DNA of 64,000 nucleotides, taken from assembly GCA_000165345.1 (NCBI GenBank), contig CM000434.1:1120001-1184000 (forward strand), in the 5' to 3' direction. Below, in pieces: positions 4,904-57,027 of this stretch. Position 1 is the first letter of the stretch; each line of letters begins with the position of its first letter. The position numbers were made by a program, and so were the translations under genes. Below the pieces are notes generated by a model. That model did no database searches, had not been told where the DNA came from, and saw only the letters and a program-made list of their open reading frames with translations.

Positions 4904-4924
4904 GATGCATGCATGCATGCATTT
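4904..4924. repeat. (GCAT)n microsatellite / tandem GCATGCA motif array
   Basis: The sequence gatgcatgcatgcatgcattt lies inside a 2.4-kb ORF-free region. Confidence 0.7.
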
Positions 4925-19745: not shown

Positions 19746-22700
19746 TCAAGAGAATGAGCCCTCTTTAAAAATATGTTGAAAATCATTAGAAGCATGGGAA
19801 CTTTTGGTAGAAGGAATGCGATGGCTTTTTTCAACATTATGATGATTATCCAAGTTGAATCTAACCAGACTTTGGTTATTTTTGAGATGATTTGAGCTTT
19901 CAGAATTGTGTTTAGAGAGATTAACTTCACGAGTGGATTTTTTTTCTTGATCAGACATGCTAGTATGTTCTTGAATATCAGAATGGGTTGCATGTGTACC
20001 ATTCGTTTTTTTTACTTTAGAATTTTCAAGATGGCTATCTTTGTAATTATGATTTTTAGTTTCAGATTCTAGTTTTTGGTTTTGAATAGATGTATCAGTG
20101 AACCTATCACTATCTTCAAATTTTATTGAGGATCTATGTCTGGATCCAGGGAGAATACTCGAAGGTTTTGATGATCTGGAACCTTTCGAGGATTTTGGAG
20201 AACGTGTTATCCTTCTATGCCTAACAATGATACCATCTAGGATTTGCCTCCAATACTTGAGTGGTTTCTTTTTTGTATGGTTATGAATAGAGTCCAGCCA
20301 AATGAGTTCACTATCTTTTGTTGGACAAATAAATGTAATTGTAGCTGCATTAGAATAACTTGAATTGTTATTTTTGTCATTAGTGGCGGTGTTAGAGGGA
20401 AGAGAACGACCGTGATCCCTGTATTCAAAACCAAAGTTGTTTGAATTTGATGAGTTATCGTTACTTGTTGGGGATTCTTTTAAGTTGGATGAAATAATGG
20501 AGAATCTAGAGGATACATCGTTAGGATGAGTAGAATCACTCAATTGAATATTATCTGTAAAGCATTTTTCATGTATAGAATATTCATCCAAAAGTAAATC
20601 ATGTGAAAGGTTTTTTTCAAAGATTTCAGCAGAAGTGATATATAGATTGCTCTTGGTTAAAACAACGACTTGTAAGGGATTTGCATTTAATGATGATCCA
20701 ATAACATATAATTTTTCAATTTGAATAACTGGTTCCTTTCCTACTTTAAGGATTGATGGTATCATAAGCTTTTCGAGAGATTTAGTTTTCTTTGCAGAGA
20801 GTTTTCTATCCAGCCTGATTGACATAACATCTGGTAAATCAATTTCTTGTTCTTCATAATACTCTCCTTCATCATCCTCATAAACAATTGTTTGAGTGAG
20901 TTCATGATGATCAGGTTGAGTAGAAATAAGGAGTTTCTCTCTAGTATTATTTGGTACATTTGGCACAACATCAATAAATGCTCGTTCATCATTACTTCCT
21001 GTTGGATTCTTGGTCAATTTAGAGTTGGACATTTTAAAACTATTTCTCTTATTAAGTGATTTGACGCATAATCTAGCGGTTCCAATCTTTTGTATGCAAG
21101 ATTTGACATCTGAATCCTCACCTTTAAGCATTGAAATCCATTTTTCAGCATTGTTAAAATCTATACATGAAAATACCCAAGAATCAATAGTATTTCCTTT
21201 AATTACATTACTAATTTCAAATCCATCTTCAATAGGTTTCCAAGAGTTAGCTGCTGCACCCAGGAATTTGGAAGTCTCAGGTGTAATAGAATTGGAGTGT
21301 ATTGATTGGATTCTGATATTTGATTGACGTATATCTGCAACAAATAACGAATTCCTGGGTTTTTCTATTTTCCCAAGGATAATTGGGATATCAATTCTCT
21401 CTAATCCTGGGGATATAGTAGGTAATGTATATCCAATTTCTCCTTTAACAGAATGAGCTTTATCAATAATATTAGAATTTTCTCTTATAGAAGAATCTTT
21501 GGAATTTTGATCTCCAGTATTACTTGCATCATAAATTACAATAAATGGAAAGCAGTACTTGATGTTAATTTGAGTTAGTTCATAGTCCATCTTAAACACT
21601 TCACTTCCATCCTCTTTTTTAGTATATATACATGCACCCATAAGTGTACCAGTAAAATGTACTTGAGATTCATAGAATTCTTCTGTCTTTAACTTTTCTT
21701 CTTTTGTTCTTCCTATAGCTTCAAGTTTCTTATCTCTACCAATTGTCATAATTTCGATATCTTTTTCAACAATTTCATCAACTTTGATATCTCCATCAGA
21801 AAGTGCTCTCATCAAACCAAAATCATCAAAAATGGACTTTTTGGCTTTATTGGCAGAATTATTAATTTCATTCATCATTTTAAAAGCTGGTAGATTTTTA
21901 TTTATTGTAACATTTTGTTTCTTTGATTGATTATTCTTCCAATCACGTAGTCCCAGCCATTCTTGCAATTTGGGGCCAGTTTGAGCTGCTTTTGATTTTG
22001 CCTTGCTTTTTGTTGGATCAAGCTTGAGTGAACTTTTTGGAGCAATTAAAGGATTTTGAATATTCTTCAGCTTCTCATGCTGAATCATTTTTAGTTTGCT
22101 TGTAAATATTTTATGAACTTTGGCTCTAGCAGCTCGATCACCTTGTTTGCCTTGTGAATAAACTTGAACATTAATTGGTCCAATGTCCTCAACAACAGAA
22201 ATATCTCCTGAGGCAATTTTTGTAATTGCATCAGATAATTTCATTGCATGATCTATATGCTCCTGAGTATATTTATTTGTATCATTTAACACATCATCAA
22301 TGACATCCGGAAATAAATTCCAATATGGAACACTCAAATGTTGAAGTTCCGGAACCAATACTCTATATGAAGAATCTAAAGTTCCCTTAACAACATTACT
22401 AATCTTTACATATCTATTAAGGGAATGGCTTGGAGAGTCTTTGGCTAGCTGAAGTATAATACTAACCTCACCACAAACACTTACGAGTAATTCTTTAAGA
22501 TCAACACAACTATTGCATATATCTTTCCCTCCACGATCAAGTTTGCTCGCTAATAGGTTAAGTTCTGTGAATAGAAGCTGTTCTTCTGATGTTATTGCCC
22601 TTGTTAAGGATTTTTGGGTATCTTCAACATTTAATAGGTTATTTTCAAAGATAGTTTTGCGCTGCTCTGCTAAGGCCGAAATCTCCGAAATCTTTTGCGA

Positions 22701-23222
22701 CATATAAAACGAAGCTGCATTAAGAGATGAGAGAGATTGCAGAAGAATTTGTCTTCCCCTTGGAATAGCTTCAGCCAATGTTAATAACAGATGAGACCCA
22801 TGCCCGTCTATAATTATACATGTTTCACAAATTAACATATAATTACAGCTTGTACAGCAATAAGTCAATTCTTTATTTTTATGTCTTTTACATTGATTCT
22901 TTTGCTTTTCCTGAAGGCTCTTTGCTGTATCTGTTCTAGATATTGACAAATGTTGTACTGATATAATGTCATGGTAACTACCCGCAGAAACATGATTCAT
23001 ATGAGCACATGATGCACAGTAGAAGCACATACATGTGCTACAGTAGAGAGTGCTTTTAGAAATCCAACAGTGCATACATATTCTATCATCCATATTGATC
23101 TTGGATTCTTCACTAGAACTGAACTGTTCAAATAGCTTCCCTATGCTATTATTTATATTCATTGCTCTCGGATCCCGCGTGCTTGCGTTATCCTTATTTG
23201 CTGAATTTTTGTTTTCGAGCAT
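19746..23222 (-). CDS. Large hypothetical protein with tandem B-box-type zinc fingers and a coiled coil (TRIM-like without RING), and a possible PH-like region
   Basis: 1158 aa. The Cys/His-rich N-terminus contains CMHCWISKSTLYCSTCMCFYCASCAHMNHVSAGSYHDI and CKRHKNKELTYCCTSCNYMLICETCIIIDGHGSHLL, followed by a heptad-rich segment. Serine-rich, low-complexity C-terminus. Confidence 0.5.
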   Translation of the reverse strand: MLENKNSANKDNASTRDPRAMNINNSIGKLFEQFSSSEESKINMDDRICMHCWISKSTLYCSTCMCFYCASCAHMNHVSAGSYHDIISVQHLSISRTDTAKSLQEKQKNQCKRHKNKELTYCCTSCNYMLICETCIIIDGHGSHLLLTLAEAIPRGRQILLQSLSSLNAASFYMSQKISEISALAEQRKTIFENNLLNVEDTQKSLTRAITSEEQLLFTELNLLASKLDRGGKDICNSCVDLKELLVSVCGEVSIILQLAKDSPSHSLNRYVKISNVVKGTLDSSYRVLVPELQHLSVPYWNLFPDVIDDVLNDTNKYTQEHIDHAMKLSDAITKIASGDISVVEDIGPINVQVYSQGKQGDRAARAKVHKIFTSKLKMIQHEKLKNIQNPLIAPKSSLKLDPTKSKAKSKAAQTGPKLQEWLGLRDWKNNQSKKQNVTINKNLPAFKMMNEINNSANKAKKSIFDDFGLMRALSDGDIKVDEIVEKDIEIMTIGRDKKLEAIGRTKEEKLKTEEFYESQVHFTGTLMGACIYTKKEDGSEVFKMDYELTQINIKYCFPFIVIYDASNTGDQNSKDSSIRENSNIIDKAHSVKGEIGYTLPTISPGLERIDIPIILGKIEKPRNSLFVADIRQSNIRIQSIHSNSITPETSKFLGAAANSWKPIEDGFEISNVIKGNTIDSWVFSCIDFNNAEKWISMLKGEDSDVKSCIQKIGTARLCVKSLNKRNSFKMSNSKLTKNPTGSNDERAFIDVVPNVPNNTREKLLISTQPDHHELTQTIVYEDDEGEYYEEQEIDLPDVMSIRLDRKLSAKKTKSLEKLMIPSILKVGKEPVIQIEKLYVIGSSLNANPLQVVVLTKSNLYITSAEIFEKNLSHDLLLDEYSIHEKCFTDNIQLSDSTHPNDVSSRFSIISSNLKESPTSNDNSSNSNNFGFEYRDHGRSLPSNTATNDKNNNSSYSNAATITFICPTKDSELIWLDSIHNHTKKKPLKYWRQILDGIIVRHRRITRSPKSSKGSRSSKPSSILPGSRHRSSIKFEDSDRFTDTSIQNQKLESETKNHNYKDSHLENSKVKKTNGTHATHSDIQEHTSMSDQEKKSTREVNLSKHNSESSNHLKNNQSLVRFNLDNHHNVEKSHRIPSTKSSHASNDFQHIFKEGSFS

Positions 23223-23593: not shown

Positions 23594-24913
23594 TCAGAAA
23601 AATTGGCATTCTGACTCAACCAAACCAATTTTATCAAAAATTGCACATACATATTTTCCTATTGGAAGTCTATTGGATTTGAAAATTGTCCATCTCAAAA
23701 TTCTCAAATTGTGGGGAGCTAGATTATTACATGCATTCGGGTTTCCCGCGTATTCTTCGTGCACTTTTCCAATATTTTCAATAAGTATTCGATTATGAGG
23801 TGAGAGAAACCAATTATAGTCAATTTCTGTTGAAAATGCTCTTGTTGGTGGAGGCATGTAGAATGTTCCAAATCCTTCACAATGAACGCTTTTTGGGTAA
23901 TTGACATCGCATAAAAGCTGATTTGAGCAGTAGCCAAGGACGGTGTTAGTTTGTTTAATAGATTGTTTAGCGAGTGAAGTTACAACTGAAGATATATTTA
24001 GAGCCTTAGATACATACCTAATTAATCTCCCAACTATAAAGACCTTTTCTTTGACTTCTTTATAGTAATTATTAGAAAGTTCTTGAGCTTCAATAAAGTT
24101 ATGGGATCCCAGCAATGATGTAATTGGGTCAATAACAACTAGTTTGAGTCTTTTTAGTTCTTTTTGTTTGATTCTTGGTAGGTCATATAGTAGTTTTTGT
24201 AGTTGAGCACAATCATCTACAGTCACTACACAAATGTTCGAGAGGAGGAGTTCCAAATTATGACTAATTTCTGTTGAATATTGTGAGTTTTGAGTCATTT
24301 CAAGTTCTCCACACAATCTTTGAAAACATTTCTTCATGAAAATTGGATCAAAACTATTGTCGGTTGTTTGAATGTAAATAACTTGATATGGAGAAATTCC
24401 TTCTAACTCTGTTTCAACATTTAAGCTTTCTAATGTTGAGTTAAACATAGTATTTGATATAATCCAGTGAACAACCCTTCTGATAACTGGTAGATCATGC
24501 CCAAAAAGTTCAGTGGTTTCACCTGCAAGAAATCCTCCATCAAAAAAATCCATTAGTATATCGGATCCTAGGTTTATATGCGATCTTAAGTCTCCATTCT
24601 GGGACCAGTTTTCTCTAGCTTCCTCTAATAATTTTTTACCTGTTACAAATCCAGTTTCAATACCAATACCACAAAGGTTAATTTTTTGGTCTTCTGTGAC
24701 GTTATTAGGGAAGCATGTAATTTTTTCTCTACATTTTGAGTAAATCCTTGCTTCTTGAAAGCTTTTTAGCCCTTTTTTTCTTAGGTTATCTAATAAAAGC
24801 TGTGGAATTGTTTTTATATCATTTTTAACGAGCTCATTTTTTGTTTCCTCATCAAGTTCAAGAATGTCAAAGAGATCGTTGTTCTCTTTACTTTTACTGA
24901 AATCGTCAGGCAT
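23594..24913 (-). CDS. RAD51/RecA-family paralog with a degenerate Walker A (probably ATPase-inactive)
   Basis: 439 aa. It has an N-terminal HhH-like segment (IKTIPQLLLDNLRKKGLKSFQEA). LGSDILMDFFDGGFLAGETTELFGHDLP aligns to RAD51 [32 protein letters not shown] with the GKT replaced. The Walker B-like stretch LKLVVIDPITSLL matches ALLIVDSATALY. FIVGRLIRYVSKALNISSVVTSLAKQ matches [27 protein letters not shown]. Confidence 0.55.
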   Translation of the reverse strand: MPDDFSKSKENNDLFDILELDEETKNELVKNDIKTIPQLLLDNLRKKGLKSFQEARIYSKCREKITCFPNNVTEDQKINLCGIGIETGFVTGKKLLEEARENWSQNGDLRSHINLGSDILMDFFDGGFLAGETTELFGHDLPVIRRVVHWIISNTMFNSTLESLNVETELEGISPYQVIYIQTTDNSFDPIFMKKCFQRLCGELEMTQNSQYSTEISHNLELLLSNICVVTVDDCAQLQKLLYDLPRIKQKELKRLKLVVIDPITSLLGSHNFIEAQELSNNYYKEVKEKVFIVGRLIRYVSKALNISSVVTSLAKQSIKQTNTVLGYCSNQLLCDVNYPKSVHCEGFGTFYMPPPTRAFSTEIDYNWFLSPHNRILIENIGKVHEEYAGNPNACNNLAPHNLRILRWTIFKSNRLPIGKYVCAIFDKIGLVESECQFF

Positions 24914-25195
24914 TGTAAAAATATCAAGTAATTATTTTGACCAGTTTTAGATACTTTTAATCTACTAGATAAGTCCATACATATATATACATATACATAA
25001 GTTTATTTATTATTTTGATTATTCCAACTTAACTCCTACTTATCCATTAAGTATAGTGGGGGAACGGTATAATTAACCAAAAGTTTATGAAAAAATTACC
25101 CATAAAAAAAAAAAATCAACAATTAACTGGAAGACTCAATTATAGTTTATTTTGATCTTAGAAAGATGCCACCAGATTCATTAATAAATATTTTC

Positions 25196-25281
25196 TATCC
25201 ACATGAAGTGTCAAATTTGCATGGTATATTTTATGCATGCAAACACCGGTATAGGAATGTGTGCAATAATGTGGACAAATA
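25196..25281. promoter_or_regulatory. Composite module (ATCCACATG, GTCAAATTTGCATGG, ATGCATGCA, ACCGGTAT, GTGGACAAAT) in the divergent promoter between the RAD51-paralog and the COWP-like gene
   Basis: The sequence is atccacatgaagtgtcaaatttgcatgg...tatgcatgcaaacaccggtatagg...atgtggacaaat. Confidence 0.45.
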
Positions 25282-25518
25282 AATAATAATAGATTAAAGA
25301 ATATAATTAAATATTTAAAGAAAATTTTTCGTTAATAATGACTAATCATGAAAGTTATAATATGAATCTTTAATTGATTTTAAAAAATGCATATTTTCAC
25401 ATAAATTAAAAAGAGGTAATTATTTTTCAATTAGAAAATTCAATAAGCAAGCTCGCAAAAATGTTTAAATAAATCAGTCAAATTTAGCAATTAGTATGAA
25501 AAGTTGGAATTACTAGTA

Positions 25519-27096
25519 ATGATGAGCAAAAAGGAGTTTGAGCGTTTACAAGCAGTTATTTTAGTATGTTTATTATATTTATGTATCCATGTTGAAGGAA
25601 ATGGCAGAAATGTAACAGGATTTGTACCAGAATTTAGGAATTCAAGAAGAGAGCCAATTCTTACAAGAGCACCTCCGGTTACAATACTTGGAGATCCAAG
25701 CATATCACTAACTATTCCAGCAAGAAAAGTTTGTTATAAGGGCTCATTTGATTCGAAGTATAATTCGTGTACTTATATAGATAAGAATGATGAGGCAGTT
25801 CCAATTTATAAGGTAAGTAATATGAAGGATTTCCAACTAATATAAATTTAATAACAAAATGGAAATTAATATTTCTTTGTAAAGCCTTGTATAGGTAATT
25901 CAACATTGGTAGATGGATATTGCATTGGAACAATGATTTCAGATTACGAAAAGTATTGTCATGGATAGTAAGTGCAATTGAAATGAATTATGAGATTTGG
26001 TTAATTCAGGTAAATTAAAGCTTTAGATTGAATAATGAGGATTTATGCATAAATTACTCAACCTATACTCCGCCTAGAAGGATTTGCCCTGAAGGATTTG
26101 AGTTGAAATCGGTAGGTCAACAACAATTGCAAGTTAAAAGGTGTGTGAGGAAATTGTATTCGAGACCAATAAAAATTCCTGTAACGGATTCTTTGGGAAG
26201 AGAAAAGTATAAAACAGAATGTAGTCACAAAGATAATAAGTATTGCCCAATAGTTAGGGCACCACAACCTGCTAAATATGTAATGCAATGCCCTAAAGGC
26301 GCAAAGTTAGTTAGTTCTTTTGATAACTCAAAAGCAACATGCGAAACCAAAGTAACAGTTGTTCCAGACTTTGATAGAAGATGTGGGGGAGAGCAGTCTG
26401 GGTGGTTTTGGGATGGGGAATTAAATGTATGTTTAAAACTAAGAACACATGAGCCAAAGTTACGCTGCCCACATCCAAGACCAAAATTAGGGATGGAAAT
26501 AGGAAATTGGGATACACCAGAATATGAACCTCATCCAATATATACATGTTTGGCAAATAGAGCTAGAGCAATAGTAAAGGGTAAGTGTGTAAATATATTC
26601 AGTTAATTAATTTATACAAATATTTCAAAAAACAAATTTCAGGTTGCCCACCTGGTTACACGTTAAAAAAAAGAAAGTGTTTCAGACTTATTAGGCTTCC
26701 TTATGAATTGGATTGTGAGCATGCTGAAGGGTAAGTTTTAATTAATATGTTCTTAAACAATAGTTAAAATCACATCAAACTATTTACTCTTCTTATTTCT
26801 TCCCCACTATTTATATTTCTAGGTTCAAGTTTGAATATGACGCCTCTACAAAAAAAGCAGTTTGTAGATTCAAATTTAATCAGCAGGACTACATTGGTCT
26901 TCCAAGTTATCCTTCTTCAAGAGAAGCATTGACTTCCCATAAAATATTTAAGCATGCTAATATTGAGGATATAATTCGGGCATATCAGCAAGGTACTTTA
27001 AATATCAGGACAATAGAGGAGGAACTAGTAAAAGAATACGACCTATTGGCAAAAATGGAACAAGGAAAGGAGCAAGTTGAACGCCCAGAAGAGTAA
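25519..27096 (+). CDS. Secreted cysteine-rich COWP-like protein (oocyst-wall-protein type I CPxG[FY]xL repeats), five exons
   Basis: The exons are 25519..25812, 25885..25967, 26021..26580, 26643..26730 and 26823..27096. All four donors are GTAAGT (25813, 25968, 26581, 26731). The acceptors are AAAG, AAAG, TTTCAG and TTCTAG, and the phases are consistent (0, 2, 1, 2), giving about 432 aa. The signal peptide reads MMSKKEFERLQAVILVCLLYLCIHVEG. Repeats include RICPEGFELKS...C, QCPKGAKLVS...C and GCPPGYTLKKRKC. The track showed only fragments, with TTG called as M at 25504 and 26028. Confidence 0.55.
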
Positions 27097-27172
27097 TACT
27101 CATATTAATCGTTATTTAAATAATTCATTATACTAGTATTTATACATTTAGAATAATATAAAGATAAACTGT

Positions 27173-27257: not shown

Positions 27258-28889
27258 ATGTGGAGTTCTTTAGAGTTAAGTAGGCCTTTATTAAAGGCAT
27301 TAAGCGATTTGAACTTTGTAGAAGCAACGTTAATTCAGAAGGAGGTAATTCCATTGGCATTATCGGGAAGAGATATTATGGCTGAGGCAGAAACAGGAAG
27401 CGGAAAGACAGCAGCATTTTTATTACCTGCATTGGAAAGATTATTGAGGTCACCATATGTTCGAAATTCCAGGGTATCATCATTGGGAAGAGTTGGTGGA
27501 GCAGTTGGTACAAAGGTGTTGGTATTATTGCCAAGTCGTGAACTAGCAATGCAATGCTTTGGAGTATTAGAATCTTTGACAAAATATTGCCCAGTGATAA
27601 CCAGGGCAGTAGTAACAGGTGGGATGAATATTCAACAGCAAGAAAGAATACTTAAATGCCAACCACATATTGTTATAGCAACACCAGGAAGAATTTTGGA
27701 TATGCTATTAAATACATTAAGCATACAGTTAGAATTATTGGAAATAATTATATTGGATGAAGCTGACAGATTATTGGATATGGGGTTTCGTCAAGAATGT
27801 TTGGAAATTCTTAAATATTCATCTAGAACTCGCCAGACAATGTTATTTTCAGCAACATTAAGTAGAAGTGTAACAGATTTAGCTTTATTGGCTCTAAATA
27901 ATCCATGCAAAGTATCTACAGTTGGTCTCAAATCAGGGATCAAATCTGTAGGAAGTTCAGGAGAATCAGAATTATTATCTATTACAGGTTTATCATCAAC
28001 ATTAGAACAAGAATTTCTTGAGATTACTAAAGAAGAAGAAAGAGAAGGCGCTTTGTTTTATATTTTAAATAAGATATTTACAAAAAGGGTTATAGTCTTT
28101 TTCCAAACTAAAAAAGAAGCTCATAGATGTGCAATTTTAGGAAATATTTTTGGATTATCATCAACAGAGTTACATGGATTCTTACCACAAGAAAAACGTT
28201 TAGAAAATTTTTCAAAGTTTAAATCTGGACAAGTTGATATTTTATTTGCTAGCGAACTAGCAGCAAGAGGATTGGATGTACAAGATGTTTCTGCAGTTAT
28301 CAATTTCACTATTCCATTAGAAGCTTCTAGATATATTCATAGAGTTGGAAGAACTGCAAGAATTGGATCTAAAGGCAATTGCATTACAATTTACACTCGA
28401 AGCGAAAGAAGCCAGTTAAAAGCTTTAATGAAACAGGTACTAAGAGCAGGTAATAAGTCTTCTGTTGCAGGAAGAGACACAAAAGAAAATGTATCTTCAA
28501 TTATGAAGAAGAGAACTCTTGCTACTAATAACATTAATCAATGGGTTGAGAAAATATCTAATTCTGAAAAACAAGTCAAAGATGCAATAAAAGCAGATAT
28601 TACAGAAAAAGAACTTAGAATTGCTGAGATGCAAGTAAATAAAGCGCAAAATATTCTTTTACACAAAAAAGATATTGAATCCAGGCCAAGAAAAAAGTGG
28701 ATAAAAAGCAAAAAAGAAAAGGATTTAACTAGAGAATCTGCAAAAAAGGATTTATTAAAATCTTGTTCTTCACTAATTGGCCAACATTCGGCATTTAATC
28801 AAGTTAAGAATACTCTTCAAAATGATTTAAAATCCAGTAACAAAACGGTTACTAATAAAAACAAAAAAAGAAAATTATCACAAAAATGA
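27258..28889 (+). CDS. DEAD-box ATP-dependent RNA helicase (DDX27/Drs1-like) with a basic C-terminal tail
   Basis: 543 aa. The Q-motif region is followed by motif I AETGSGKTAAFLLP, Ia PSRELA, II DEADRLLDMGF, III SAT and VI HRVGRTAR. The C-terminus is K/R-rich. Confidence 0.85.
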   Translation: MWSSLELSRPLLKALSDLNFVEATLIQKEVIPLALSGRDIMAEAETGSGKTAAFLLPALERLLRSPYVRNSRVSSLGRVGGAVGTKVLVLLPSRELAMQCFGVLESLTKYCPVITRAVVTGGMNIQQQERILKCQPHIVIATPGRILDMLLNTLSIQLELLEIIILDEADRLLDMGFRQECLEILKYSSRTRQTMLFSATLSRSVTDLALLALNNPCKVSTVGLKSGIKSVGSSGESELLSITGLSSTLEQEFLEITKEEEREGALFYILNKIFTKRVIVFFQTKKEAHRCAILGNIFGLSSTELHGFLPQEKRLENFSKFKSGQVDILFASELAARGLDVQDVSAVINFTIPLEASRYIHRVGRTARIGSKGNCITIYTRSERSQLKALMKQVLRAGNKSSVAGRDTKENVSSIMKKRTLATNNINQWVEKISNSEKQVKDAIKADITEKELRIAEMQVNKAQNILLHKKDIESRPRKKWIKSKKEKDLTRESAKKDLLKSCSSLIGQHSAFNQVKNTLQNDLKSSNKTVTNKNKKRKLSQK

Positions 28890-29031: not shown

Positions 29032-29080
29032 TATCCACATTAATTCCAAATGCATGCATGCATGCAAAAAACACGTAATT
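29032..29080. promoter_or_regulatory. Composite module (TATCCACAT, TGCATGCATGCATGCA, ACACGTAATT) in the tail-to-tail region between the DEAD-box and roadblock genes
   Basis: The sequence is tatccacattaattccaaatgcatgcatgcatgcaaaaaacacgtaatt. Confidence 0.4.
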
Positions 29081-54865: not shown

Positions 54866-54937
54866 ACACGTAATTTGTGCATGCATGCAAAAAAGTTTAC
54901 AAGAAAATAGATGACGTGTTTGCATGTGGACAATACG
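54866..54937. promoter_or_regulatory. Composite module (CACACGTAATT, TGTGCATGCATGCAAAA, GACGTG, TTTGCATGTGGACAATACG) between the beta-adaptin gene and the next gene
   Basis: The sequence is cacacgtaatttgtgcatgcatgcaaaaaag...gacgtgtttgcatgtggacaatacg. Confidence 0.4.
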
Positions 54938-56955: not shown

Positions 56956-57027
56956 GGTACCGGTACCTATCATAAATTTTTATATTGTCTCGAGATCCAA
57001 TTTTTAGATATGCATGCATGCAAAAGT
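56956..57027. promoter_or_regulatory. Composite module (12-bp palindrome GGTACCGGTACC and ATATGCATGCATGCAAAAG) in a tail-to-tail intergenic region
   Basis: The sequence is ggtaccggtacctatcataaatttttatattgtctcgagatccaatttttagatatgcatgcatgcaaaag. Confidence 0.35.

What the first reader, a model, noticed from the sequence alone, without database searches (positions are those of the whole stretch)
25519..27096. Five-exon COWP-like cysteine-rich secreted protein gene in a genome where nearly all genes are intronless
Between the RAD51-paralog and DEAD-box genes the ORF track shows only fragments: 25504..25845 and 26028..26606 (both with TTG counted as M), and nothing for the last two exons. Four perfect GTAAGT donors at 25813, 25968, 26581 and 26731 pair with AG acceptors to give a phase-consistent five-exon CDS of about 432 aa. 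It has a signal peptide and repeated C...CPxG[FY]xL...C units (RICPEGFELK, QCPKGAKLVS, GCPPGYTLKK), the hallmark I associate with the type-I repeat of Cryptosporidium oocyst wall proteins. Four introns in one small gene is unusual for this genus and suggests regulated or stage-specific expression of a wall or secreted adhesive protein.
Basis: partly seen in the sequence, partly recalled or inferred. Interest (0 to 1): 0.75.

Follow-up and report, generated by a model that had tools for sequence, protein, structure and literature searches.

The report
Five-exon oocyst-wall-family gene, already annotated
The flagged stretch of Cryptosporidium parvum chromosome 6 is a real five-exon gene for a secreted cysteine-rich protein of the oocyst-wall-protein family; older annotations split it in two, the newest one already carries it, so the reading is correct but mostly not new.

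Summary
Exons 25519-25812, 25885-25967, 26021-26580, 26643-26730 and 26823-27096 join in frame through four GTAAGT...AG introns. The product is a 432-aa protein with 22 Cys and an N-terminal hydrophobic signal-like segment.

Orthologues from C. muris, C. andersoni and C. serpentis align without indels across all four junctions. The four intron positions are shared with C. serpentis. Exons are far better conserved than introns. C. parvum versus C. hominis gives dN = 0.

The window is C. parvum chromosome 6. The gene equals the old fragment models cgd6_4810 plus cgd6_4820. GenBank record CP141123.1 already calls one 432-aa gene over exactly this span.

The protein is a clear orthologue (33% identity, E 2e-58) of a Toxoplasma "putative oocyst wall protein" of 489 aa, most likely TgOWP4. 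It is distantly but significantly related to canonical TgOWP3. Its type I repeats are degenerate.

Published RT-PCR shows late (36-72 h) expression, timed like COWP1 and COWP8 but about 100-1000 times weaker. It is missing from one oocyst proteome, so wall localisation remains an inference.

It is not one of the named COWP1-9. I could not compare it with COWP1-9 sequences directly.

The parts
25519..25812 (+). Exon 1 (294 nt, phase 0 end): first in-frame ATG, signal-like hydrophobic segment (aa 12-23) and the first 2-Cys module. Equals the old model cgd6_4810.
   Evidence: cgd6_4810 RT-PCR primers map to 25592-25693
25813..25884 (+). Intron 1 (72 bp, GTAAGT...AG, 19% GC)
   Evidence: position shared with C. 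serpentis; 53% identity with indels versus C. canis
25885..25967 (+). Exon 2 (83 nt), the same length as the corresponding C. serpentis exon
   Evidence: 89% identity to C. canis, no indels
25968..26020 (+). Intron 2 (53 bp, GTAAGT...AG). The nearer acceptor at 26008-26009 would create a TAG stop codon.
26021..26580 (+). Exon 3 (560 nt): the main Cys-rich block, including CPEGFELK and CPKGAKL. Equals the core of the old model cgd6_4820.
   Evidence: cgd6_4820 RT-PCR primers map to 26340-26426
26581..26642 (+). Intron 3 (62 bp, GTAAGT...AG)
26643..26730 (+). Exon 4 (88 nt): the one fully canonical OWP module, CPPGYTLKKRKC. Same length as the corresponding C. serpentis exon.
26731..26822 (+). 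Intron 4 (92 bp, GTAAGT...AG)
26823..27096 (+). Exon 5 (274 nt including the TAA stop): last Cys (C356) and a conserved Cys-free C-terminal region predicted to be helical
24914..25518 (.). 605-bp intergenic region shared with the divergently oriented cgd6_4800, presumed to hold the promoter. It contains one TGCATGCA palindrome at 25234-25241.
   Evidence: promoter role is an inference

Best explanation
This is one five-exon protein-coding gene of Cryptosporidium parvum chromosome 6, formerly split into cgd6_4810 and cgd6_4820. It encodes a 432-aa secreted protein with no transmembrane segment. The mature protein is about ten two-cysteine 'C(P)xG[FY]xL...C' beta-hairpin modules, that is, degenerate type I repeats of the oocyst-wall-protein (COWP/TgOWP) family. 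These are followed by a conserved Cys-free helical tail.

Shown here: the gene structure, its conservation, its homology and its late expression.

It is the Cryptosporidium orthologue of a Toxoplasma protein that is most likely TgOWP4 (TGME49_222940). That identification is an inference from matching length and repeat type.

The proposed mechanism is inferred by analogy with COWP1-9 and is not shown. The signal peptide takes the protein into the secretory pathway of late (sexual-stage) parasites. It is stored in wall-forming bodies and released after fertilisation. Disulfide bonding then builds it into the oocyst wall as a low-abundance component.
For: Gene model:
- In-frame splicing through four GTAAGT...AG introns.
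- Colinear orthologues in C. muris, C. andersoni and C. serpentis across all junctions.
- All four intron positions are shared with C. serpentis, with flanking exon lengths of 83 and 88 nt identical.
- Exons are 71-89% identical to C. canis without indels; introns are 44-53% identical with indels.
- Synteny of the P-loop gene (-), this gene (+) and the DEAD-box gene (+) is kept in two other species.
- CP141123.1 calls a 432-aa gene over identical DNA and coordinates.
- Both old fragments have dN = 0 and dS about 0.106 against C. hominis (PMC4637869 supplement).

Family:
- BLASTP to T. gondii P0049, 'putative oocyst wall protein', 489 aa: 33% identity over 341 aa, E 2e-58.
- The spacing of all 20 mature cysteines is conserved between Cryptosporidium and Toxoplasma.
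- TGME49_222940 is 489 aa (PMC11731929) and is TgOWP4 (PMC3278417). TgOWP4 is described as having degenerated type I repeats (PMC4514997).
- A profile search of 1.84 billion proteins finds coccidian and gregarine orthologues and, weakly, TgOWP3 at E 5e-4.
- A module HMM built from canonical OWPs scores 31.8 bits, reached by 0 of 2000 shuffles.
- hhalign against TgOWP3 orthologues gives 97.5% probability, E 8e-12.
- UniRef names the orthologues 'Oocyst wall protein'.

Secretion: the only strongly hydrophobic segment is aa 12-23, preceded by a charged stretch.

Timing: both fragments are near zero at 2-6 h and rise at 36-72 h, like COWP1 and COWP8 (PMC3305300 supplement; COWPs peak at 48-72 h per PMC1779779).

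Fold: the AlphaFold2 model of the C. muris orthologue (pLDDT 74) is all beta-hairpins plus C-terminal helices.
Against: - No localisation data exist for this protein or, as far as I found, for any member of its orthologous group.
- It is absent from the oocyst TMT proteome list of PMC12548878, where the rows run from cgd6_4790 straight to cgd6_4830.
- TgOWP4 was not detected in the Toxoplasma oocyst proteome (PMC3278417).
- Transcript levels are about 100-1000 times below COWP1 and COWP8.
- Neither old gene ID appears in the held parts of the female-enriched gene lists of Tandel 2019 (those files are truncated, so this is inconclusive).
- Cys spacing is only partly canonical.
- Pfam has no matching model.
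- I could not obtain COWP1-9 sequences for a direct comparison.
- SignalP was not available.
Confidence: 0.6

Rival explanations
1. The gene model and the family are as above, but the protein is not a structural oocyst-wall component. It would instead be a secreted cysteine-rich protein with another role in late development, such as sporogony, an inner or vestigial sporocyst-like layer, the suture, gamete or zygote surface interactions, or sporozoite tethering.
For: - Not in the oocyst proteome list.
- Low transcript level.
- TgOWP4 transcripts rise from day 0 to day 4, during sporulation rather than in the unsporulated oocyst, and the protein was not seen in the oocyst proteome (PMC3278417).
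- The Eimeria relatives EnOWP2 and EnOWP6 go to the sporocyst wall rather than the oocyst wall (PMC4514997).
- The orthologous group has a conserved Cys-free helical C-terminal region that canonical OWPs such as TgOWP3 lack.
Against: [quoted passage not shown]
- Homology to that family is significant.
- Expression timing matches the COWPs.
- Cross-linked, low-abundance wall proteins can be missed by mass spectrometry.
Confidence: 0.3
2. The fragments are two separate small genes (cgd6_4810 and cgd6_4820), as in the original annotations, and the splice sites are fortuitous.
For: Older records-108-aa and 107-212-aa products here (CP029785.1, BX526834.1, CM109966.1). The 2015 re-annotation kept two IDs.
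Against: - Single colinear orthologues exist in five Cryptosporidium species, Toxoplasma, Besnoitia and gregarines.
- Intron positions are conserved.
- The exon/intron conservation contrast is clear.
- The two fragments show parallel expression profiles.
- A single 432-aa call exists in CP141123.1.
- Exons 2, 4 and 5 would otherwise be conserved coding sequence with no start codon.
Confidence: 0.03
3. The resemblance to COWPs is convergent: a generic cysteine-rich beta-hairpin or growth-factor-receptor-like repeat, with no common ancestry with oocyst wall proteins.
For: - Short Cys/Pro/Gly motifs are low in information.
- Pfam finds nothing.
- The whole-library E-value to TgOWP3 is only 5e-4.
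- Profile-profile scores for Cys-rich repeats can be inflated.
- There are no structural matches in the PDB.
Against: - hhalign aligns 238 columns at 97.5% probability.
- 0 of 2000 composition-matched shuffles reach the module score.
- The weak hits in the 1.84-billion-protein search that I could name are OWP-type proteins of apicomplexans (TgOWP3, Piridium, Selenidium, Lankesteria), not unrelated Cys-rich families.
- The Toxoplasma orthologue was classified in the TgOWP1-7 family by others.
Confidence: 0.07

Closest known systems
TgOWP4 (TGME49_222940), Toxoplasma gondii oocyst wall protein family member with 'degenerated type I repeats'
   Same: - 33% identity over 341 aa, E 2e-58.
- The same 20-Cys spacing pattern.
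- The same Cys-free C-terminal region.
- A signal peptide.

   Different: - The Toxoplasma gene has one 127-bp intron, at a position not shared with C. parvum, whereas C. parvum has four.
- The Toxoplasma protein has a longer N-terminal extension.
- Several modules keep CPxG in Toxoplasma where C. parvum has lost the Pro.
- Identifying P0049 as TgOWP4 rests on the matching 489-aa length and repeat type, not on an accession match.
COWP1-9, the named Cryptosporidium oocyst wall proteins (cgd6_2090, cgd7_1800, cgd4_670, cgd8_3350, cgd7_5150, cgd4_3090, cgd4_500, cgd6_200, cgd6_210)
   Same: - Signal peptide and no transmembrane segment.
- Cys-rich C(P)xG modules.
- Transcripts peak at 48-72 h.
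- COWP7 is also multi-intronic, with 8 predicted introns.

   Different: - A different locus, not included in the nine.
- Cys content is 5% with irregular spacing, against a Cys every 10-12 residues.
- Transcript level is about 100-1000 times lower than COWP1 and COWP8.
- Not seen in the oocyst proteome.
- It has an extra helical C-terminal region.
- I could not make a direct sequence comparison.
TgOWP3 and other canonical type I repeat OWPs (Besnoitia, Cystoisospora, Piridium)
   Same: They share the 23-residue two-Cys module. hhalign gives 97.5% probability, E 8e-12 over 238 columns.
   Different: Canonical OWPs have about 40 Cys at a strict 11-13-residue spacing. Here only 9 of 19 intervals fall in that range, and loops reach 26 residues.

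Membership tests
COWP/TgOWP cysteine-rich oocyst wall protein family | N-terminal signal peptide and no transmembrane domain | tested here: met
   Hydropathy only: the strongest 12-mer in the whole protein is aa 12-23 (mean Kyte-Doolittle 3.18), after a charged KKEFER stretch, and there is no other hydrophobic segment. SignalP was not available, so a signal anchor is not formally excluded.
COWP/TgOWP cysteine-rich oocyst wall protein family | Cysteines at regular intervals, about every 10th-12th residue (PMC12548878) | tested here: inconclusive
   22 Cys in 432 aa (5.1%). The mature-protein intervals are 12, 16, 11, 12, 12, 13, 19, 26, 8, 15, 17, 14, 16, 12, 27, 12, 11, 12, 19, so 9 of 19 are in the 11-13 range. 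TgOWP3 is almost entirely 10-13. This fits the published 'degenerated type I repeat' subclass.
COWP/TgOWP cysteine-rich oocyst wall protein family | Sequence similarity to type I repeat modules of accepted family members | tested here: met
   An HMM of 67 modules from TgOWP3-type proteins scores 31.8 bits in total, with one full module at aa 314-334 (15.8 bits). 0 of 2000 shuffles reach either value. hhalign of the orthologous group against TgOWP3 orthologues gives 97.5%, E 8e-12. TgOWP3 is hit at E 5e-4 in the 1.84-billion-protein search.
COWP/TgOWP cysteine-rich oocyst wall protein family | Direct similarity to C. parvum COWP1-9, or to COWP type I/II domain models | not tested
   None of the three capped homology searches returned COWP1-9 sequences. 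Pfam holds no model that matches.
COWP/TgOWP cysteine-rich oocyst wall protein family | Type II (His-rich spaced) repeats | tested here: not met
   The sequence has no His-rich spacers. This feature is not required: the TgOWPs lack type II repeats altogether (PMC4514997).
COWP/TgOWP cysteine-rich oocyst wall protein family | Expression in macrogamonts (wall-forming bodies) and localisation to the oocyst wall | not testable with these tools
   Only indirect data are available. RT-PCR shows a rise at 36-72 h, as for COWP1 and COWP8. The protein is absent from one oocyst proteome list and from the held parts of the female gene lists.
TgOWP4 orthologous group | Full-length colinear similarity with conserved Cys framework and C-terminal region | tested here: met
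   E 2e-58 with 33% identity over aa 66-400. The order of Cys intervals is identical. The coccidian cluster represented by Besnoitia P0017 is the best coccidian hit (E 4.7e-53), far ahead of the next one, TgOWP3 at E 5e-4. I did not run a reverse best-hit search from Toxoplasma into Cryptosporidium.

The most novel reading that the evidence does not exclude
C. parvum has a tenth oocyst-wall-family gene that the COWP1-9 nomenclature missed, probably because four introns broke it into small ORFs. On my data it has a clear one-to-one relative in Toxoplasma-group coccidia and in gregarines, and it shows dN = 0 between C. parvum and C. hominis. It could therefore be an ancient, low-abundance core component of oocyst or spore wall assembly, for example a nucleating, suture or inner-layer factor. 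Its helical C-terminal region might mediate oligomerisation.
Probability: 0.35. Interest if true: 0.45.

Novelty: already known. Interest (0 to 1): 0.25.

Why it matters
Practically, anyone using the older C. parvum gene sets (cgd6_4810 and cgd6_4820 as two small 'uncharacterized' genes) will miss or mis-quantify this protein in proteomic and transcriptomic work. That may explain part of its absence from oocyst-wall lists.

Biologically, recent literature still describes the Cryptosporidium wall family as 'nine COWPs' (PMC12548878). A tenth, deeply conserved relative is an obvious candidate for the same tagging and knockout approach. Beyond that the finding is ordinary: a correctly predicted member of a known family, already present in a current annotation.

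Tried and rejected
- Pfam scan of the 432-aa protein: no hit even at E <= 1.
- The first AlphaFold2 run with 5 sequences was unusable, pLDDT 36. A 25-sequence alignment gave pLDDT 74.
- A PDB sequence-profile search found nothing meaningful.
- Homology searches from Besnoitia P0017 and TgOWP3 did not retrieve any Cryptosporidium COWP.
- Templeton 2004 and Walzer 2024 are not held.
- The COWP upstream 12-bp motif of PMC1779779 is given only as a figure, so I could not test it.
- The supplements of Tandel 2019 and the AP2-F paper do not list the old gene IDs in the held text. This is inconclusive because the files are truncated or contain only selected genes.
- The bacterial promoter and terminator scan is irrelevant for a eukaryote and showed no enrichment.
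- The alternative acceptor for intron 2 at 26008-26009 is rejected because it would create an in-frame TAG.
- I chased weak Logan hits P0040 and P0041 hoping they were COWPs. They come from an unidentified compact genome (SRR11177099) and did not help.

Full report
**Where the window comes from**

The DEAD-box protein at 27258..28889 is encoded identically on BX526834.1, CP141123.1, CP029785.1 and CM109966.1, which are chromosome-scale records of about 1.16-1.31 Mb. From my own knowledge, BX526834.1 is Cryptosporidium parvum chromosome 6.

Gene lengths published for C. parvum match the window ORFs exactly:
- cgd6_4790, 3477 nt, matches 19746..23222.
- cgd6_4800, 1320 nt, matches 23594..24913.
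- cgd6_4830, 1632 nt, matches 27258..28889.

The RT-PCR primers that Mauzy et al. 2012 list for cgd6_4810 map to 25592-25693, in exon 1. Those for cgd6_4820 map to 26340-26426, in exon 3. The finding therefore concerns the interval that older annotations split into cgd6_4810 and cgd6_4820.

**Checking the observation**

The two large ORF fragments are at 25504..25845 and 26028..26606.

Joining 25519-25812, 25885-25967, 26021-26580, 26643-26730 and 26823-27096 gives a 1299-nt open frame, 432 aa plus a stop. All four donors are GTAAGT and all four acceptors are AG. Introns are 72, 53, 62 and 92 bp with 18-26% GC, against 33-40% GC in the exons. An exhaustive GT..AG search constrained by the protein recovers the same four introns.

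GTAAGT occurs only 18 times on both strands of the 64-kb window. Four of these fall on the coding strand within 920 bp here, where about 0.3 would be expected for a gene of this size.

**Independent support for the gene model**

- The 405-aa proteins of C. muris, C. andersoni and C. serpentis are 58-60% identical and align without any indel across all four junctions: IYK|PCIG, CHGY|FRLN, IVKG|CPPGY and HAEG|FKFEY.
- In the C. serpentis locus the gene has five introns. Four sit at the C. parvum positions, with the flanking exons of 83 and 88 nt identical in length. The fifth splits the equivalent of exon 3.
- Against C. canis, exons are 71-89% identical with no indels. Introns and flanks are 30-53% identical with indels.
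- The gene order is kept in C. serpentis and C. canis: P-loop gene on the minus strand, then this gene, then the DEAD-box gene.
- Isaza et al. 2015 report both fragments as 100% identical in protein between C. parvum and C. hominis, with dS about 0.106 and dN = 0.
- The window DNA is identical to CP141123.1 positions corresponding to locus L004 2262-3839. The deposited annotation there calls a single gene with a 432-aa product. Start, stop and total intron length (279 bp) are the same.

The model is therefore correct and already public. Other deposited annotations still fragment it into 107-108-aa and 107-212-aa products.

**What the protein is**

Pfam has nothing. The word-indexed homology search finds only Cryptosporidium orthologues, which UniRef names 'Oocyst wall protein'.

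A profile search of 1.84 billion representatives gives 31 hits. The strong ones that I could name are:
- Besnoitia BESB_062680, which UniRef also calls 'Oocyst wall protein';
- eukprot transcriptome proteins with GHV-series identifiers, one of them labelled Ancora sagittata (a gregarine);
- a protein annotated in a bee genome.

The weak tail that I could name contains TgOWP3 (E 5e-4) and regular-repeat proteins from Piridium, Selenidium and Lankesteria. None of the 20 hits I could look up came from Plasmodium or piroplasms. The remaining hits were unnamed or not looked up.

The Toxoplasma member of the Besnoitia cluster, P0049, is a 489-aa 'putative oocyst wall protein'. It aligns with the window protein at 33% identity over 341 residues, E 2e-58. 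The order of intervals between the 20 mature cysteines is the same in the two proteins.

TGME49_222940 is 489 aa. It is the gene called TgOWP4, and TgOWP4 is one of the two TgOWPs described as having 'degenerated type I repeats'. I therefore identify the window gene as the Cryptosporidium orthologue of TgOWP4. The orthology to P0049 is shown. Equating P0049 with TgOWP4 rests on the length match and the repeat type.

**Testing the COWP-type claim**

Canonical OWPs such as TgOWP3 have about 40 cysteines at intervals of 10-13 residues. The window protein has 20 mature cysteines, and 9 of its 19 intervals fall in the 11-13 range. The other intervals range from 8 to 27.

I built an HMM from 67 two-Cys modules of canonical OWPs. 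It recognises one complete module, CPPGYTLKKRKC... at aa 314-334, and several partial ones. The total is 31.8 bits, and none of 2000 shuffles reached it; the best shuffle scored 15.4.

A profile-profile comparison of the orthologous group with TgOWP3 orthologues gives 97.5% probability, E 8e-12 over 238 columns.

**Architecture**

The only strongly hydrophobic stretch is aa 12-23, after a charged stretch. This is consistent with a cleaved signal peptide, although SignalP was not available.

An AlphaFold2 model of the C. muris orthologue, built with a 25-sequence alignment, reaches pLDDT 74. It shows a chain of beta-hairpins followed by two C-terminal helices in the conserved Cys-free tail. Nothing in the PDB resembles it.

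**Expression and localisation evidence from the literature**

In the 72-h HCT-8 time course, both fragments are essentially silent at 2-6 h and rise at 36-72 h, to about 1e-6 to 7e-5 relative units. COWP1 and COWP8 show the same timing but reach 1e-3 to 2e-2. COWPs are reported to peak at 48-72 h. The parallel profiles of the two fragments also fit a single transcript.

Against a major structural role, neither old ID appears in the oocyst TMT proteome table of Bacchetti et al. 2025, where cgd6_4790 is followed directly by cgd6_4830. TgOWP4 was likewise not detected in Toxoplasma oocyst proteomes, and its transcript rises during sporulation. Wall localisation is therefore an inference from family membership and timing, not a demonstrated fact.

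**How unusual the intron count is**

In the 2015 re-annotation, 10.8% of C. parvum genes have introns. Intron-containing genes have 2-10 exons with a mean of 2.6. Mean intron length is 99 bp at 22% GC. COWP7 is predicted to have eight introns.

Five exons is thus in the upper tail but has precedent, including within this family, and the introns here look typical. They are old within the genus, being shared with the gastric Cryptosporidium species. The Toxoplasma orthologue has a single intron elsewhere. Intron number alone says nothing about regulation.

**Verdict**

However, the gene model is already in a public annotation, and the protein belongs to a known family with a described Toxoplasma orthologue.

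The only mildly new point is that this gene is not counted among the 'nine COWPs' of the literature. It would be a reasonable tenth candidate for tagging. Interest is low to moderate.

Noticed in passing
window, 26 sites, e.g. 4906-4921, 25234-25241, 29051-29066, 54878-54889, 57011-57022: The palindrome TGCATGCA occurs 26 times in the window against 0.72 expected from shuffles, often as overlapping tandem copies. Where I compared positions with the ORF list, the sites lie between ORFs. From my own knowledge this resembles a known apicomplexan AP2-type binding motif. One copy lies 278 bp upstream of this gene's ATG.
   Followed up: partly
L009 2501-3989 (C. canis JAPCXC010000087.1) and proteins P0001, P0004, P0005: The deposited C. 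canis models carry a 22-residue insertion (VRMNK[VG]PLIAETSLFNGCTSAS) exactly where intron 1 lies in the other species. This suggests a mis-spliced or read-through intron 1 in that annotation. The C. felis entry KAF7456857.1 is a 147-aa fragment covering only the equivalent of exon 3.
   Followed up: partly
L008 3335-3405 (C. serpentis JBHPOL010000033.1): The C. serpentis gene has a fifth intron (71 bp, GTTAGT...AG) that splits the equivalent of C. parvum exon 3. This means an intron was lost in the intestinal lineage or gained in the gastric one. The single Toxoplasma intron lies a few residues away in the alignment but not at the same position or phase.
   Followed up: partly
protein P0029/P0044 (XP_053992957.1 and XP_053992956.1, Hylaeus volcanicus): A RefSeq protein annotated in a bee genome, on a 2.76-Mb contig, matches this apicomplexan oocyst-wall-family profile at E 1.6e-15. 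The likely cause is sequence from an apicomplexan (gregarine?) parasite assembled with the host genome. The contig could not be retrieved.
   Followed up: partly
window about 30600 onward, minus strand (cgd6_4840): The next gene but one downstream is a large subtilisin-like protease with Pfam Peptidase_S8 and NIDO hits (1323-1324 aa). The published gene length of 4051 nt implies about 79 bp of intron. It is abundant in the oocyst proteome table. Subtilisins are discussed as processors of oocyst wall proteins in Eimeria. Its proximity to this gene is probably coincidental.
   Followed up: no
window 25541: Three other records that encode the identical DEAD-box protein (Logan runs DRR729224 and DRR729253, and CM109966.1) differ from the window in this gene by a single substitution. 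It is A to G, changing Glu8 to Gly in the charged stretch just before the signal-like hydrophobic segment. They also carry a 4-bp insertion in the 3' flank at 27145.
   Followed up: no
L010 and L011 (Logan SRR11177099 contigs): An unidentified organism with a compact, gene-dense genome carries several OWP-like genes. Two 544-aa genes sit about 1.6 kb apart on one 22.5-kb contig, and a 774-aa gene sits on another contig. These genes are weak hits to the profile.
   Followed up: no
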